Positions 529 to 63,800 of a DNA stretch of 64,000 nucleotides are shown in pieces. Each line of letters begins with the position of its first letter. Position 1 is the stretch's first letter. The stretch comes from Amoebophrya sp. A120. Taxonomy: Eukaryota; Protista; Dinoflagellata. A program made the translations under genes and the position numbers. The notes beneath the pieces were generated by a model. It worked only from the letters and a program-made list of their open reading frames with translations, was not told where the DNA came from and made no database searches. Where the stretch lies: NCBI GenBank assembly GCA_905178155.1, contig CAJINV010000012.1, positions 988,004-1,052,003 of the forward strand. The letters are read 5' to 3'.

Positions 529-797
529 TATGCATTGCAAATCTGTCTTGGTCTGGGTTTGTGATGCGAGATTTGGATTAAGGTCTGTGATCTTCTTCCG
601 TGAGTGCGCGTTTCATCTTTCATGATCATGCTGGATGGTCAAAGTTTGTATAGTGCGTTTTACAACGAATGAATCTGTAATAGGCCTCGCGAAACTACTG
701 ATGCTGTTGACCCGTGCAGGCAGCCATTCTGCAGTGCTGGTATATACTTATCAGCAACACAAATTTTTCGACCCGGACACATTTGCTGCAATGGATA
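529..797. mobile_element. Introner-like TIR element, family A, degenerate
   Basis: tatgcattgcaaatctgtcttggtctggg ... acccggacacatttgctgcaatggata; flanking direct repeat decayed. Confidence 0.7.
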
Positions 798-900
798 TCT
801 CTACGTCGATGACGATCTCCTGTAGGACAACCGCGCGGTGGCGGTCGTGGTCCAGCATTATTTCCTCCTCCCCGCGACGAAGAAGATGCTAGTAGGCCGC

Positions 901-1206
901 TATGCATGGCAAATACTCAGGTCTGGGTCTGGGTTTGTGATGCAAAATTGAAAGGACATGGACAGGATCTGCAGGGCATGAAAAATGCGACTGGCCAGCG
1001 GTTTTGTGATTGCCGTGTAGTTGATGAGTGGTCGCGGTTTCTTGTCATGCTAAACGCGAATAATAATAAACTCGTCGCAAGATTATAAGCCGAGGAAAAT
1101 TCCTTCACATGTTGTTATCCCGTACATCACCAAGAGGTGGCCCTGCATTGCAAGTACCAGCAACACAAACTTCCAGAGGAACCAGAGTAAACATTTGCAA
1201 TGCATA
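901..1206. mobile_element. Introner-like TIR element, family A, degenerate
   Basis: tatgcatggcaaatactcaggtctgggtctggg ... ttccagaggaaccagagtaaacatttgcaatgcata. Confidence 0.7.
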
Positions 1207-59262: not shown

Positions 59263-61766
59263 GATGATTTATTTCCTTTCGCTTTCTGTTTATTACTGGT
59301 CGTGAGCCGCTAAAAATACGCCACTCCACGACTCGTCCTTGTTACAATGGACTGCAAGAAAAATCGGTAGAACAATTGTAGCATCGAGCTCATGGCAATG
59401 GTTTGATAAAAGCATGCAGCCGTGTCAGATGGTAATGGTTTGATAAAGATGCCATCGTGTTTAATAATTAAACAGCAGAAAACGGCTGCTGATGCAGGGC
59501 GGCGCAGGCCAATTAGGCCACACATCACTTGTGTTGACCGCAAAAGGACGATCAGCAAACCCGCCAAACAGAAGATGAAAACGACGACATCCGAAGACCT
59601 CAGGGCAGCTACACCGATTGTGCGAAAAGCTGCCGCACAAGCACTTAACGATCGAGCTCACAGAAGTTCGTGGCAATGAAGAAAACCAAAACGAAAACAC
59701 GAAAAATGTCTTCAGCGCGACAGTTCTTGCACCTGTTGGAACAAATACCATGATGAAGGATCTACTGCACTGAACAGAAACAACTGCCACATCAGAGTGA
59801 TGAAATACGGGGAAGAAGAACATCGTCCGCTGTTGTACATTCTGCAAACAACTCACCTATCCGTTCGAAAAAGGACCGAATGATCACACACCCCGGCTTC
59901 TAGGTGGCTTACTTACTTAATTGATCGCGTTGTTTATAATCTTGCGTACCTTTGTACTCGACGTCGTGATATTGTTCACAATTCTGTCGCTGTTTCGCAT
60001 GATCACATGGTTCATTTTTAAAAGTTCAACACGGTCGAGATTTACAGGAACTACTCGATTCGGTATTTCCGGTGTCCTATCCTTTGAAATTTGTATGTAA
60101 ATCGTATACAAATTGAAATTATCCGGTGTTGCTCTTCCTAGTACCGGCTAGGAACACTTGCTCGCATATCTTTCGACCGCGTCATTTGTAAGCCGTGGAC
60201 AAATCAGGTTTCGAAAGCCCCCAAGAATCCGACTTATTATGTTCTTGTCGTCGTACGTATCCGTATTATGCATCGCATGAAGTTGTACCACTCTGCCACG
60301 TCCTGGCTCAGCTGAAAATTATGCGCTGAAAATTTTGCTAGCGACTACTGGTGCTGTTCCTGTTTGTCCGTCGTAAAGATTAAGTAAAAAAAACCCCTGA
60401 AATTATCGCGAGCAGCTTTGCTCGGATCATTTTTTCGTATCGTATGAATCATTGAATGAAATGTAGCATGATAGCCTGTAAGTAGGCTTGTTGATGTAGT
60501 TTGTGGTGCTAAGTATACCAAAGCACTATTCAGAGCTAGAGCTTACTACTTGGTGATGTCAAAATGGATTGGGTTTCTTGCAAGCCGACGTCAGTTGTAT
60601 TTTCGTTTCCCTTTTATTCCTTCCAAGCCGTAGCATATCGCAGGATAGCAGCTCCTTCCAAAAGTCAAGCCAGCTATATTCTAGCGCAAGTACCAGGCTC
60701 AAATATCCTCAACAAGAGACGTTTACCATACGCGGACGCGCTTCTTAAGAAAAGTCTCGCGATAACAAAAAACCTGGCTAAACTTCTACTGATGCTAGAA
60801 AATGAACTGCAAATGTATGAGAAAGACATAACTAGGTAGAAGTAGGTTAAACCTGCTGCAGTTCCAAGGTGGTTTTGTGGAAAAAAAAGGTTCTTGCTTG
60901 GTAGGTTCTTCCATGCCAGATGAACTACCGGAAAAATCACCAGACGTGCGGTTGCTTCTCTCTTGTCTTCTGGAGTGGAGGAAAAAAGGGCTCTAGTACA
61001 GCAGCTTGTGCTGCAAAAGGTATAAATCTAAGGAATTAGATAGAATTTTTCGTTGAGGCGAAGGAAAGCCGAGGATCTTCTTACCTTGTCAGCGACTAAG
61101 GCTAGTATCCTAACTTTTCCCAAGTACTACTACTAGATGATGTTGATGGGGCAAAAAATACGTCAATGTAAAGAAGAGAAAAAAGGCGGGCGCTTCTAGA
61201 TTTCTAGCCTAAAAGAAGGGTTGTAAGTACTGAGAACCATCTTCAAGGAGGTAGATATGCTAGCTATGTCGATCTGAATTCAGCTTATTTGGTCGCACTC
61301 GTAAAGGATTCCCAAAACAGTGGAGGTTCACCAAGCAGTAGCTTGCGATGCTGTGTAGTAAGATAGGCAAACTGCTTTGATGAAACCCGCTCTACATTAC
61401 TCGATGACCAAAAAAGGCTAAGGCTCAGCGTCCTTCAATCAATGTATGAAATTGAAATAGTAAGCATGCTGCACGCATGCTCATTTCTGCTTGTAAGACC
61501 GCCCAAAGAGCTGCGTTGTTTTGAAACGAAGTATATGAACAATCGCTTCAAGAACAACTTCAAGTCATCGTCTCCAAGGAGCGGTTTAGGTTTTGCATCA
61601 GCGGGAGAATGCCATTCAGATTCGAGTCCCGCCCGAGAAAAAGTCGTTCGTTGTATCACGTTTACTTGAATAAATTTGAATAATTCTAGTCGTGTGCGTG
61701 TGGTCGAGGACATAATTTCTACTCTACTTATTTTAGACGAAGATCATATATTGCTGCTGCTGCTTA

Positions 61767-63800
61767 TCACATTCCCATCATGCTTCCCAGCATCGGGTTT
61801 GCGAACCGCATGGCCCGGACCTCCGGATGAGGGACGTGTTCGAATATGGCGCTCTCAACTGTTACATTCTCAACTGTTACATATATTTGTCATGCAAAAA
61901 CGCTACTACTCTGAACACTGTCCAGCCTTTTCCGCATGACAACTTCTCGACGCGCTAGATAGTATTACAATCTGCTCCAAACCTGTCATGCAAAAGGCGC
62001 AGCGTTTCCCTTTCACTTTTGCCATTCTTGCATTACAAATTTCATGTAACAGTTGAGAATGTAACGTTTGAGAACGCTATATCGAAGGAGACGACTTTGT
62101 AGCTCAAATCCCGCAAGTACTCGTTTGATTTCTTGACTTGCTCCGTCTCCTTCTCGATCCACTTCGACCTGTTTTCCTTCCCCACCTTGTACCGGATAAA
62201 CGCGCCCTTGTTTTTCATTTGGTCGCAGTAGTTCGGCGCGGAAAAGATGGTGCACAGCTTTCCGTTGTGCTCGAGCTCGTACCTGGGGTTGCATTTGTTT
62301 ATTTCCCAATAAAAAAAAACAGTTATGCATCCATTTTCTTTGTGCGACAACATGAGGCATTAAAAGTCAACATCTTAAATTTCTTATCTATATACCCCTC
62401 ATCCTTCATTTCGTGACTTCTGACCACCATGCTGAGGTCATTCGTCTTCAGAAAATTGTCCGTTACGTCGTGGCCGAATGCCACTCCTACCCCGCGTTTA
62501 CTGGGATATCTACCGGGAAGCGGGCCGGGATCCGACCAGAGCATTTCCACTATTCTGCCACTGTCTGGGGGCTCGCCGATTCTGATATAGAAAAGCGTTT
62601 TGTCGACTACATGCGGAATTTATTATATATCAGGATCATAACCATAAGCGCGTGCGGTTACAAGTAACTACTTTGAAGATGAAGATGCAGAACCTGTGAC
62701 GATGGTTGTCTACGATTCAAATTCGTGGCTACTACCATGCGCACACCTTAAGTCCTCGTCAGCAACAGCATAGTCTTCACCTTCAGAGAGTATTCTTATA
62801 CCTGTCCTCTTTCTCCAGATCTTCGATAGTGACGTTGTCTGCGGAGAACAAGCCGCCATGAACGATGAAGATTTCCTTGTTCAGGACGTGGCAGAGCGGC
62901 AAGTAGCAAAACGTCTCGCAGAACAGGTTGTAGAGCTGCACGTCAAATTTGTTTCTGGTTTCCCCCTCAAACCCGTACAGCTTGTTCATGTTCCGCGTCT
63001 CGTGGTTGCCGCGGGCCAGGTGAACCTGTGATAATACACATCGCAATATTAGTATGAATTGCATTGCAAATTTCCTCATCATGACGAGAAATGGAATCTG
63101 TAATGCTGATTTTAGGAAAAAGATTTGTAATGCACAATTGCAAAAAAAAACAGCTGCTACGCACAAATCTCTTTTACCTTATCCGGGTAGCACAGTTTCC
63201 AGGCGAAGAGGGCGAGTATGACTTCTATCGAAAAGGACCCTCGATCCACGAAGTCACCGTTGAAGAGGTACGGGTTGGTTTCTGACGGGAATCCGTTCAG
63301 GGAGAAGATGTTCAGCAGATCATAATACTGCCCGTGCACATCCCCACACACCGTGAACTCGTCTTCCGCTTCCAGTTTCTGCACGGTCGTGTGCGTTTTT
63401 AGTAATTTCAGCACGTCCAGGACCATTTGGTAGGCGGATTTTTTGTGGATCACCTTCTGTTCCTTCATGTAATCCAGGAACGTTACGACCCAGTCGGAGG
63501 TAATTTGGTCCTTGCCCGGGTAGTATCAAATGCAAATATGTTTGGGTCTGGAAGATTGTCATGCTAGTCCGACATGACTCTGCGATCTGTATTGCCTGGC
63601 CACAAGCAGCCCCTCTTGTCTGTCATGCAAAAACGCAGTTTCTCATGCGTAATACGCAGCACAGAAGCACGATAATACTTGTCATGCTTGGCGGCGCATT
63701 ACAGTGCACTTGCTGTTCACTGACTTGCATCACAACTCTCCAGACCCAGACATATTTGCAATGCATAGGTAGATGGGCCCCTTGTAGGTATCCTCGATCT
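61767..63800 (-). CDS. PPP5: Serine/threonine protein phosphatase 5, catalytic domain (5' part continues beyond window)
   Basis: [41 protein letters not shown] and PP5-type tail [17 protein letters not shown] introns 62283-62395, 62582-62801, 63026-63177 plus two introners. Confidence 0.92.
61845..62081. mobile_element. Introner, family D
   Basis: Family D TIRs; perfect DR tcgaa. Confidence 0.95.
63026..63177 (-). other. Canonical GT-AG intron derived from a family B element
   Basis: AAG|GTAAAA...TCACAG|GTT joins [13 protein letters not shown]; core caaatttcctcatcatgac...tgtaatgctgattt...aaaagatttgtaatgca matches family B. Confidence 0.8.
63524..63767. mobile_element. Introner, family A
   Basis: Family A TIRs; perfect DR ggtag; join YKGPIY|PGKD. 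Confidence 0.95.

What the first reader, a model, noticed from the sequence alone, without database searches (positions are those of the whole stretch)
529..63767. Window-wide system of TAT...ATA, 5-bp-DR transposon-introns removed without GT-AG signals
Seen: about 64 inserts (roughly 1 per kb) from at least 10 unrelated TIR families share one grammar, NNNNN-TAT[TIR]...[TIR]ATA-NNNNN. The 5-mers are arbitrary, so no fixed GT or AG is supplied. Deleting the element plus one 5-mer rebuilds catalytic motifs (L|TGES, PEGL|LP, lipase ML|PAH, PP5 tail). Known: inverted-repeat/direct-repeat non-canonical introner elements have been reported in Amoebophrya, so the class itself is not new. To my knowledge the excision machinery and mobilising transposase are unresolved. 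TAT termini with a 5-bp TSD fit no DNA-transposon superfamily I can name (Transib has 5-bp TSDs but CAC ends). Inference: a structure- or protein-guided precise excision system co-existing with the normal spliceosome in the same genes.
Basis: partly seen in the sequence, partly recalled or inferred. Interest (0 to 1): 0.92.

Follow-up and report, generated by a model that had tools for sequence, protein, structure and literature searches.

The report
Transposon introns cut at fixed offsets
The genes of this parasitic marine alga carry about one small transposon per kilobase, a system already published; assembled transcripts lack them, with the informative cuts falling one base before and four bases after the transposon, likely made by an adapted spliceosome that no longer needs the usual GT-AG signals.

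Summary
In detail: 65 elements in 64 kb, mostly TAT…ATA with 5-bp direct repeats (33 strict cases vs 0 in 20 simulations). The window is Amoebophrya sp. A120 (three proteins, 99-100% identical), and these are the introner elements published for that strain: TAT start, 5-bp repeat (Farhat 2021); one family is filed as 'Ginger, 5-bp TSD, TA/TA termini' (Gozashti 2025). So the class is known. Transcript-type contigs (13 elements) and annotated proteins (33 of 33) show removal of element+5 nt. What I did not find in print: elements with mismatched repeats all fit one register, intron = N·TAT…ATA·NNNN, even where the repeat has decayed. That puts U-A at +2/+3, as in the GTA donors of the window's canonical introns and, by inference from published tables, in strain A25's TTA elements. 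Best reading: an adapted spliceosome reads N-U-A, and the terminal hairpin sets the acceptor (about 0.55). Rival: a Euglena-like non-spliceosomal cut-and-ligate system (about 0.33). The families are not unrelated: they share an internal motif. No transposase was found. The scan noted a similar hairpin-set acceptor in another genome (unchecked).

The parts
196..442 (.). element, family E, DR 2/5 (degenerate, uncertain)
529..797 (.). element, A-like ends, DR 2/5 (uncertain)
901..1206 (.). element, A-like ends, DR 2/5 (uncertain; coding context unclear)
4313..4537 (.). element, family E, DR 4/5
4775..5114 (.). element, C-like ends, DR 4/5
5394..5747 (.). element, A-like ends, TAC at transcript 5' end, DR 4/5
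7956..8140 (.). element, family B, DR 2/5
8332..8666 (.). element, A-like ends, DR 2/5
9147..9341 (.). element, B-like ends, TAC 5' end, DR 1/5
10964..11167 (.). element, singleton, DR 4/5; joint 10958>11168 in 3 of 4 runs; registers 0-1 only
11468..11622 (.). element, family B, DR 4/5; joint 11462>11623 in 4 of 4 runs
12483..12696 (.). element, DR 5/5
13973..14236 (.). element, family A, DR 5/5
18834..19156 (.). element, DR 5/5; joint 18828>19157 in 1 of 4 runs
19418..20237 (.). 820-bp element between two copies of a ~75-bp exon segment, no 5-bp DR; joint 19413>20239 in 1 of 4 runs (left end set after seeing the joint; a TAT at 19416 is the alternative)
21918..22178 (.). element, family A, DR 5/5 (coding context unclear)
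22921..31215 (-). P-type cation ATPase gene (P0001, 1651 aa): 13 elements and 2 GT-AG introns
23333..23493 (.). element, family B, DR 5/5
23537..23815 (.). element, family C, DR 5/5
23929..24109 (-). canonical GT-AG intron (GTAT donor)
24212..24361 (.). element, family B, DR 5/5
24431..24668 (.). element, DR 5/5
25542..25802 (.). element, family A, ACA at transcript 3' end, DR 5/5
25908..26164 (.). element, family A, DR 5/5
26429..26664 (.). element, family D, DR 4/5
27217..27396 (.). element, family B, DR 5/5; removal rebuilds PEGL-LP
27475..27753 (.). element, family C, DR 5/5
27820..28085 (.). element, family A, DR 4/5
28253..28397 (.). element, family B, DR 5/5
28472..28733 (.). element, family A, DR 5/5; removal rebuilds L-TGES
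28943..29133 (-). canonical GT-AG intron (GTAC donor)
30103..30293 (.). element, family B, DR 1/5; annotated protein fits registers 1-2 only
32743..36813 (-). class-3 lipase ORF rebuilt across 4 elements
32940..33190 (.). element, family A, DR 4/5
33299..33560 (.). element, family A, DR 5/5
33652..35738 (.). 2,087-bp family A element with a nested ~1.8-kb insert, DR 5/5; removal rebuilds ML-PAH
36239..36462 (.). element, family E, DR 5/5
39109..39379 (.). element, family D, DR 5/5; one contig stops at its edge, another reads into it, and annotation P0122 reads into it
39241..44437 (-). DUF268-domain gene (P0122, 972 aa) with 10 elements removed
39764..40022 (.). element, family A, AAA at transcript 3' end, DR 5/5; skipped in contig
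40089..40245 (.). element, DR 5/5; skipped in contig
40358..40614 (.). element, family A, DR 5/5; skipped in contig
40748..40940 (.). element, singleton, DR 3/5; skipped in contig; registers 0-3
41418..41626 (.). element, B-like, ACA 3' end, DR 3/5; protein fits registers 0-2
42215..42503 (.). element, family C, DR 4/5; registers 0-2
42985..43240 (.). element, family A, DR 4/5
43296..43526 (.). element, family D, DR 5/5
43583..43831 (.). element, ATG at transcript 3' end, DR 5/5
43879..44009 (.). element, family B, TAC 5' end, DR 5/5
47572..47807 (.). element, family D, DR 5/5
48580..52397 (-). gene of unknown function (P0121, 550 aa) with 10 elements removed
48714..48876 (.). element, family B, ACA 3' end, DR 3/5; skipped in contig; registers 0-2
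48928..49208 (.). element, family C, DR 4/5; skipped in contig
49325..49484 (.). element, family B, DR 5/5; skipped in contig
49631..49887 (.). element, family A, DR 5/5; skipped in contig
49965..50269 (.). element, family C, DR 3/5 (mismatch at positions 1 and 2); contig edge and protein both fit register 1 only; intron = 49961-50270 on the minus strand
50889..51041 (.). element, family B, DR 5/5
51213..51491 (.). element, family C, DR 5/5
51559..51717 (.). element, family B, DR 5/5
51748..51999 (.). element, family A, DR 5/5
52146..52254 (.). element, 109 bp, DR 5/5
52417..52679 (.). element, family A, DR 1/5 (shifted 4-bp match), upstream of the annotated start
54174..54385 (-). candidate canonical intron (GTAC donor); an RNA-type contig piece ends at its predicted edge
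54529..54755 (.). element, family A, DR 5/5
54840..55104 (.). element, family A, TAC 5' end, DR 4/5
55156..55310 (.). element, family B, DR 5/5
56007..56240 (.). element, family B with internal hairpin duplication, DR 4/5
56288..56577 (.). element, family C, DR 5/5
56762..57031 (.). element, DR 5/5
57071..58760 (.). 1,690-bp family B element with a nested ~1.5-kb insert, DR 5/5
61845..62081 (.). element, family D, DR 5/5; removal rebuilds the C-terminal tail of a calcineurin-like phosphatase (the name PP5 is recalled)
63524..63767 (.). element, family A, DR 5/5

Best explanation
These are the published introner elements of Amoebophrya sp. A120, short inverted-repeat elements flanked by 5-bp duplications, and assembled transcripts lack them, with every informative junction fitting a cut one base before TAT and four bases after ATA, likely made by an adapted U2-type spliceosome. 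SHOWN: the elements, their 5-bp duplication, removal of element+5 nt, and one register (intron = N·TAT…ATA·NNNN) that holds where the duplication has decayed. INFERRED, mobilisation: an integrase-related DDE transposase encoded elsewhere binds the TAT ends and the shared internal motif and makes a 5-nt staggered cut at near-random sites. INFERRED, splicing: the donor is read through U(+2) A(+3) with a free +1, as in the host's GUA donors. The terminal inverted repeats pair in the pre-mRNA and set the acceptor by distance, 4 nt past the stem, in place of AG; the A at -7 is a candidate branch point. Because 1+4 = 5 equals the duplication length, splicing restores the original coding sequence in either orientation and any phase, which would explain how the elements could fill genes.
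For: Identity: exons 99-100% identical to A120 proteins; A120 IRs start TAT + 7 nt + AAA, and Fig S19 shows 5-bp DRs. Removal: 4 joints listed directly; two contigs skip 4 and 5 elements with gaps of 296 and 371 nt, exactly as element+5 predicts; 33 of 33 elements inside three annotated proteins fit only +5 among lengths -6 to +16. Register: 49965 fits register 1 only, by contig edge and by protein; 10964 fits 0-1; 30103 fits 1-2; 41418, 42215 and 48714 fit 0-2; 40748 fits 0-3; at 19418 the transcript-5' cut is 1 nt before TAT; no case excludes register 1. Farhat Table S4: all 9 predominant A120 motifs are NT-NN and all 9 A25 motifs are TT-NN. A25 elements start TTA+RR, which also puts U-A at +2/+3 (my inference). 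All 8 candidate canonical introns in the window have a GTA donor (2 matched to P0001; 2 had an alternative GT nearby). End variants in 215 strand-oriented elements: 5' end 0/2/4 vs 3' end 5/8/1 at TIR positions 1/2/3, permutation p 0.01. Hairpin: z < -2 in 51 of 62; TIR 9-15 paired in 53 of 62. Spliceosome nearly complete with U1 snRNA undetected; Fritillaria precedent. Mobilisation: no target preference in the external elements (up to 249); A120 family 38 has integrase-like ORFs, TA/TA ends and a 5-bp TSD.
Against: No direct evidence on the enzyme. No AG and no covariation between +1 and -1 (p 0.24, 215 elements), which the spliceosome's second step normally needs (recalled). TATC and TATG ends show no preference for the donor side, so +5 is not selected. 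The U-A-U is predicted to be inside the stem in 39 of 62. The end-variant test rests on 20 elements, was framed after seeing the window data, and A(-7) did vary once. Only two sites pin register 1 exactly, and one of them (19418) had its left end chosen after the joint was seen. All RNA joints come from contigs of one sample whose RNA status is a guess by the tool, and the annotation cannot be assumed independent of them. All window genes are on the minus strand, so the register was not tested on a plus-strand gene. Retention signs: contig 39079-39355 (only 30 exon letters), contig 11025-11177, and P0122 reading into 39109. No transposase found.
Confidence: 0.55

Rival explanations
1. Same elements and same register, but a non-spliceosomal, structure-guided endonuclease-ligase (or an unknown second machinery, as proposed for Euglena) measures from the end of the hairpin, cuts at -1/+4, ligates the exons and releases a circle.
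For: No AG, no +1/-1 covariation, no +5 selection. Stable terminal stem. Euglena nonconventional introns obey a stem-plus-spacer code N3CDG…CHG N5-6|R, also with the longer overhang at the 3' side, and leave as circles.
Against: The 5'/3' asymmetry of end variants, with U(+2) never changed. The match of N-U-A to the host's GUA donors, apparently reached by two different termini in A120 and A25. Euglena's purine-at-exon-start rule did not replicate: 48 of 65 in the window but 93 of 150 outside, against a 55% background.
Confidence: 0.33
2. The junction slides within the direct repeat (homology-guided joining, variable cut site), as the published description of variable borders would suggest.
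For: Farhat et al. call the splice sites variable relative to the hairpin and the border unknown. For 39 of 65 elements the DR is perfect and the register cannot be read.
Against: Every informative mismatch fits register 1, and removal stays at +5 where DR identity is 1/5 (30103) or 3/5.
Confidence: 0.05
3. The skips are reverse-transcriptase template-switch artefacts ('falsitrons') at direct repeats flanking a hairpin; real mRNA keeps the elements.
For: Hairpin plus short DR is the known signature of such artefacts (listing only; detail recalled). Some contigs retain element sequence.
Against: The ATPase motifs exist only after removal at 13 sites. Skipping occurs without DR homology and at a fixed register.
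Confidence: 0.03
4. The elements are excised from DNA (IES-like or a somatic form of the genome), and the 'RNA' contigs are DNA or transcripts of the excised form.
For: The tool marks X3, X4, X6, X7 as RNA by guess only; the joint table of the DNA-type run X1 was swamped by cross-mapping, so an excised DNA form was not excluded.
Against: X1 contigs run from exon into element at single-copy depth 37-47. An X3 contig also stops at a GT-AG intron edge. A strand-asymmetric 1+4 register points to RNA. The published introns are RNA-seq supported.
Confidence: 0.04

Closest known systems
Introner elements (IEs) among the non-canonical introns of Amoebophrya sp. A120 (Farhat et al. 2021, PMC7789003)
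   Same: Same organism; TAT + 7 nt + AAA inverted repeats; 3-5-nt (figure: 5-bp) direct repeats; about 240 nt; mixed with GT-AG introns in the same genes; no internal transposase.
   Different: None in kind. The paper's text leaves the border unknown and 'variable' and reports no clear splice signature. I find a fixed -1/+4 register, U-A at +2/+3 and a shared internal motif. I could not see its figures (3, S19-S25), which may show part of this.
[quoted passage not shown] 2025, PMC12130899, Dataset file sd07)
   Same: TA/TA ends, 5-bp TSD, TIRs, non-canonical splice sites.
   Different: About 810 bp with ORFs resembling Copia/Gypsy sequence; most other A120 families in the rows I read are 'TIR DNA, Unknown'. 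No such ORF was detected in the window's long elements.
Integrase-related DDE transposons: Ginger2/TDD, IS3EU/GingerRoot, IS481EU (PMC2836005, PMC10045372)
   Same: TDD-4/5 make 5-bp TSDs; IS3EU/GingerRoot end TA..TA; IS481EU ends TNT..AYA.
   Different: No one group combines TAT ends with 5-bp TSDs: Ginger ends are TGTNR, GingerRoot TSDs are 6 bp, IS481EU TSDs about 4, 15 or 25 bp. No transposase in hand.
Euglenid nonconventional introns (PMC12501133, PMC11282704)
   Same: MITE-like, terminal stem, fixed spacers with the longer one at the 3' side, no GT-AG, coexist with spliceosomal introns.
   Different: Pairing motif CAG/CTG with 3 and 5-6 nt spacers and a purine at exon +1; released as circles. 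Here UAU/AUA with 1 and 4 nt spacers, no robust purine rule, product unknown.
Fritillaria borealis non-canonical introns (as reviewed in PMC11282704)
   Same: MITE-derived introns with TIR and TSD, non-GT-AG ends, removed by an adapted spliceosome.
   Different: Preferred ends AG-AC and AG-AT, with an exonic TAC target; here the terminal dinucleotides are free except U(+2).

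Membership tests
A120 introner elements (Farhat 2021) | Occurs in Amoebophrya sp. A120 | tested here: met
   three exons 99-100% identical to A120 proteins
A120 introner elements (Farhat 2021) | IR starts TAT, seven variable nt, then at least three A | tested here: met
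   pooled logo of 424 ends: T419 A415 T419; A 381, 392, 399 at positions 11-13
A120 introner elements (Farhat 2021) | 3-5-nt direct repeat at the borders | tested here: met
   110 of 134 unfiltered pairs have an exact 5-bp DR; 52 of 65 in the window have >=4/5
A120 introner elements (Farhat 2021) | Repeated, and absent from mature transcripts with non-GT-AG ends | tested here: met
   families; removal; 0 of 65 GT-AG
MITE (non-autonomous TIR transposon) | Short, TIRs, fixed-length TSD, many copies, no coding capacity | tested here: met
   no transposase or integrase family in 16 reading frames of long elements
Ginger (Ginger1, Ginger2/TDD) | TGTNR termini | tested here: not met
   ends are TAT in 410 of 430; Ginger termini
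Ginger (Ginger1, Ginger2/TDD) | 4- or 5-bp TSD | tested here: met
   5 bp, as TDD-4/5; no CCGG or RTATAY target preference
Ginger (Ginger1, Ginger2/TDD) | Gypsy-integrase-like DDE transposase in an autonomous copy | not testable with these tools
   no genome held; no autonomous copy in the window or in 169 loci
IS3EU/GingerRoot | TA..TA termini | tested here: met
IS3EU/GingerRoot | 6-bp TSD | tested here: not met
   0 of 134 pairs with an exact 6-bp duplication
Transib | CAC..GTG termini with 5-bp TSD (recalled) | tested here: not met
   ends are TAT..ATA
U2-type spliceosomal intron | GT(GC)-AG ends | tested here: not met
   0 of 65 in the window, 7 of 150 outside
U2-type spliceosomal intron | U(+2) and purine (+3) at the donor | tested here: met
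   U(+2) 215 of 215; A(+3) 213 of 215
U2-type spliceosomal intron | Lariat with branch-point A; dependence on U2/U5/U6 | not testable with these tools
   needs excised-intron sequencing; A(-7) kept in 214 of 215 is only a candidate
U12-type intron | RTATCCTT donor (recalled) and minor snRNAs | tested here: not met
   +5 is C 134 or G 71 of 215, +1 is purine in only 141 of 215; minor snRNAs reported absent
Euglenid nonconventional intron | N3CDG…CHG N5-6|R code | tested here: not met
   motif and spacers differ; purine rule not replicated
Euglenid nonconventional intron | Released as a full-length circle | not testable with these tools
   no raw reads covering the locus

The most novel reading that the evidence does not exclude
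Amoebophrya A120 has a spliceosome (or a successor to it) that has dropped both G(+1) and the terminal AG. It takes any N-U-A as donor and finds the acceptor with a molecular ruler, 4 nt beyond an RNA stem formed by transposon ends, possibly branching at an A 7 nt from the end as group II introns do (recalled). The 1+4 geometry equals the transposase's 5-bp duplication, so every insertion is a scarless intron. A sister strain with different transposon ends (TTA) would have reached the same N-U-A donor.
Probability: 0.4. Interest if true: 0.85.

Novelty: already known. Interest (0 to 1): 0.5.

Why it matters
The system is published, but how tens of thousands of introns without GT-AG are removed is still open, and the original paper left the borders undefined. 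A single register turns that into exact predictions: the intron's first and last base, a candidate branch A, and which bases to mutate. It also gives a simple rule for re-annotating A120 genes. If the spliceosomal reading is right, it shows the second splicing step working without AG recognition and explains how a transposon became invisible at the protein level. If the rival is right, A120 offers a second lineage, beside Euglena, with a structure-guided mRNA splicing machine.

Tried and rejected
No whole genome was held and the external contigs could not be extended, so no genome-wide search for an autonomous element was possible. No listed holder of the stretch was on record as RNA. Laying the DNA-type run X1 beside the RNA-type run swamped the joint table (15 rows shown, 1,840 hidden), so junctions there were read from contig pieces. 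Stretch 330-10300 had almost no cover in four runs, so the most degenerate elements stayed untested. Purine bias at intron +1 / exon +1: 43 of 56 in the window but 94 of 150 outside and mostly explained by codon position; rejected as a splicing signal. Phase-0 excess: 76 of 146 outside but 17 of 50 in the window; not replicated. U12-type reading rejected. Internal motif as a strand-specific splice signal rejected: 111 plus vs 118 minus, mirror-symmetric placement. The frame test alone is weak: +5 leaves a 300-nt open frame at 52 of 65, but so do +2 and +8, and out-of-frame lengths do at 28-31; the length comes. Long elements as transposase carriers: no relevant Pfam family in 16 frames; their interiors match none of the 169 loci. 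For strand calls, 237 of 249 external elements could be scored and 150 passed the score cut; the caller was right in 50 of 50 window cases passing the same cut. Literature searches for a published register or mechanism returned only the papers cited; one search returned none; Roy et al. 2023 and Henriet et al. 2019 were not read.

Full report
OBSERVATION. A scan for any 5-bp direct repeat around an inverted repeat gave 54 hits, 34 beginning TAT. The strict grammar with a TIR score of at least 8 occurs 33 times at 60-700 bp, against 0 in each of 20 simulated windows. Adding elements with decayed repeats or one changed terminal base, found by end similarity, internal motif clusters and RNA joints, gives 65 elements covering 30% of the window. 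Of these, 35 have the perfect grammar and 52 have a DR of at least 4/5. The catalogue is hand-curated and the six most degenerate entries are uncertain. By body sequence there are five multi-copy families and 17 singletons. They are not unrelated: ends share TAT-N7-AAA, and 61 of 65 carry the motif GCA(T/A)(G/T/C)A(C/G)A(A/G), 12 per kb inside vs 0.25 per kb outside, in both orientations and mirror-placed near the two ends. That pattern suits a DNA-binding site for one transposase (inference).

IDENTITY. An ATPase exon is 100% identical to a protein labelled Amoebophrya sp. A120, and two more exons match A120 proteins at 100% and 99%. Farhat et al. 2021 (PMC7789003; I read the abstract, sections 10, 11, 12, 16, 32, supplement passages and part 3; no figures) describe A120 introner elements whose inverted repeats start TAT, seven variable bases, then at least three A, with 3-5-nt direct repeats, 29,850 copies, and genes mixing both intron types. 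Their Fig. S19 legend names 5-bp repeats. Gozashti et al. 2025 (PMC12130899; passages, section 6, parts 15-16 and searched rows of dataset sd07) list 58 A120 families. Most rows I read are 'TIR DNA, Unknown', and family 38 is 'Ginger; 5-bp TSD, TA/TA termini' with integrase-like ORFs. The finding is therefore a known system in its known genome.

MORE COPIES. One pattern scan of metagenome contigs returned 169 loci of another assembly with 249 distinct elements, 236 TAT/TAT, sharing the window's families at 66-96% identity and no exon sequence with the window. Of 134 pairs chosen by TIR alone, 110 have an exact 5-bp duplication and none a 6-10-bp one. Target sites show no sequence preference.

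REMOVAL. In the three annotated proteins, 33 of 33 elements inside the coding region fit only element+5 among lengths -6 to +16. In contigs of runs that the tool guesses to be RNA (one sample), four joints are listed directly, and two contigs skip four and five elements with gaps of 296 and 371 letters, exactly as predicted. One such contig also ends at a GT-AG intron edge. Contigs of the DNA-type run run from exon into element at single-copy depth. Against complete removal: two short contigs read into elements 39109 and 10964 (30 and 10 exon letters, below the tool's bridging threshold), and the annotated P0122 ends inside 39109.

REGISTER. Where the two DR copies differ, the product tells where the cut lies. 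Counting k as the number of left-copy bases kept on the plus strand: 49965 fits k=1 only (contig edge and protein), 10964 fits 0-1, 30103 fits 1-2, 41418, 42215 and 48714 fit 0-2, 40748 fits 0-3, 11468 fits 0-4, and 19418 fits 1 (left end chosen after seeing the joint; its other cut lies one base outside ATA regardless). Since the genes are on the minus strand, the intron is N·TAT…ATA·NNNN. Removal keeps this length at DR identity 1/5, so the ends, not repeat homology, set the cut. Farhat's text calls the sites variable and the border unknown, yet all nine predominant A120 motifs in Table S4 are NT-NN, as this register predicts. [quoted passage not shown] Limits: two sites pin k exactly, one sample, no plus-strand gene, and annotation and contigs cannot be assumed independent.

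MECHANISM. At this register every donor reads N-U-A. All eight candidate canonical introns in the window start GTA with no further consensus (two verified against P0001). In 215 strand-oriented elements U(+2) never varies, whereas the equivalent base at the other end varies five times; variants fall 0/2/4 at the 5' end and 5/8/1 at the 3' end (20 elements, permutation p 0.01, test framed after seeing the window). Strain A25's elements start TTA plus two purines and its predominant introns are TT-NN, which again gives N-U-A (my inference). A120 has nearly the whole major spliceosome, with U1 snRNA undetected and no minor snRNAs, and an adapted spliceosome removes MITE-derived non-canonical introns in Fritillaria (PMC11282704 section 6). 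I therefore favour an adapted U2-type spliceosome that reads U-A and takes the acceptor 4 nt past the TIR stem (fold z below -2 in 51 of 62), with A(-7), kept in 214 of 215, as a candidate branch point: 0.55. Against it: no AG, no +1/-1 covariation (p 0.24), no selection at +5, and a donor predicted to be base-paired in 39 of 62. The main rival is a Euglena-like machine; there a stem with 3- and 5-6-nt spacers defines introns that leave as circles (PMC12501133 abstract and discussion): 0.33. Euglena's purine rule looked present in the window (43 of 56) but did not replicate outside. RT artefact, sliding junction and DNA excision are each 0.05 or less.

TRANSPOSASE. None found. The three long elements of the window (820, 1,690, 2,087 bp) and one external 834-bp element gave no transposase or integrase family in 16 frames; two are short elements with nested inserts. 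TA ends and a 5-bp duplication lie within the range of integrase-related DDE transposons (TDD-4/5: 5 bp; IS3EU/GingerRoot: TA..TA, 6 bp; IS481EU: TNT..AYA; passages of PMC2836005 and PMC10045372) without matching any one group. An integrase-like enzyme is the likely mobiliser; membership in Ginger fails on the termini. A relative with canonical introns and U1 is reported (PMC12005148 passages), a useful comparison for snRNA and Prp8.

EARLIER SCAN NOTES. None for this genome. One unchecked note from another genome describes an acceptor set by position after a hairpin; it agrees in spirit and is not evidence here.

VERDICT. Real and already known as a system. The fixed, repeat-independent register, the N-U-A donor and the shared internal motif are additions that I did not find in print and that make the open splicing question directly testable. 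Interest 0.5.

Noticed in passing
window 33701-35507: A ~1.8-kb insert nested in a family A element, flanked by a ~12-bp duplication of the internal motif region and starting with a T14 run; it looks like a retroposed insertion. It also holds two short telomere-like AAACCCTAAA motifs. No Pfam match; not found in the 169 loci.
   Followed up: partly
window 57196-58725: A ~1.5-kb GC-rich insert nested in a family B element, with a ~12-bp tandem repeat at 57870-58100 and a direct repeat around 57232 and 58237; no Pfam match.
   Followed up: partly
window 19336-19415 and 20238-20315: The 820-bp element sits between two diverged copies of a ~75-bp exon segment; both stay in the spliced contig and in frame, so the insertion lengthened the protein. 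Related ends occur in other transcript contigs.
   Followed up: partly
window 63026-63177: A candidate GT-AG intron contains a family B-like core with the internal motifs but no TAT…ATA ends: possibly an old element converted to a canonical intron.
   Followed up: no
window 54169-54173 and 54381-54385: A canonical GT-AG intron is itself bordered by a 5-nt repeat, as expected if it also arose from an insertion with a 5-bp duplication.
   Followed up: partly
window 7750-7912: A C-like right end at 7912 and a possible left end near 7755 with no matching direct repeat; left out of the catalogue.
   Followed up: no
whole window: All long rebuilt genes lie on the minus strand, as in the co-oriented gene clusters reported for this genus.
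   Followed up: no
loci L001-L169: Phase-0 excess at the supported register (76 of 146), absent in the window (17 of 50); unexplained. Several loci hold element ends without a partner within 450 bp, candidates for longer copies.
   Followed up: partly
window 39109-39379: The annotated protein P0122 ends inside this element, while removal would extend the frame to 38995; a possible annotation error or regulated retention.
   Followed up: partly
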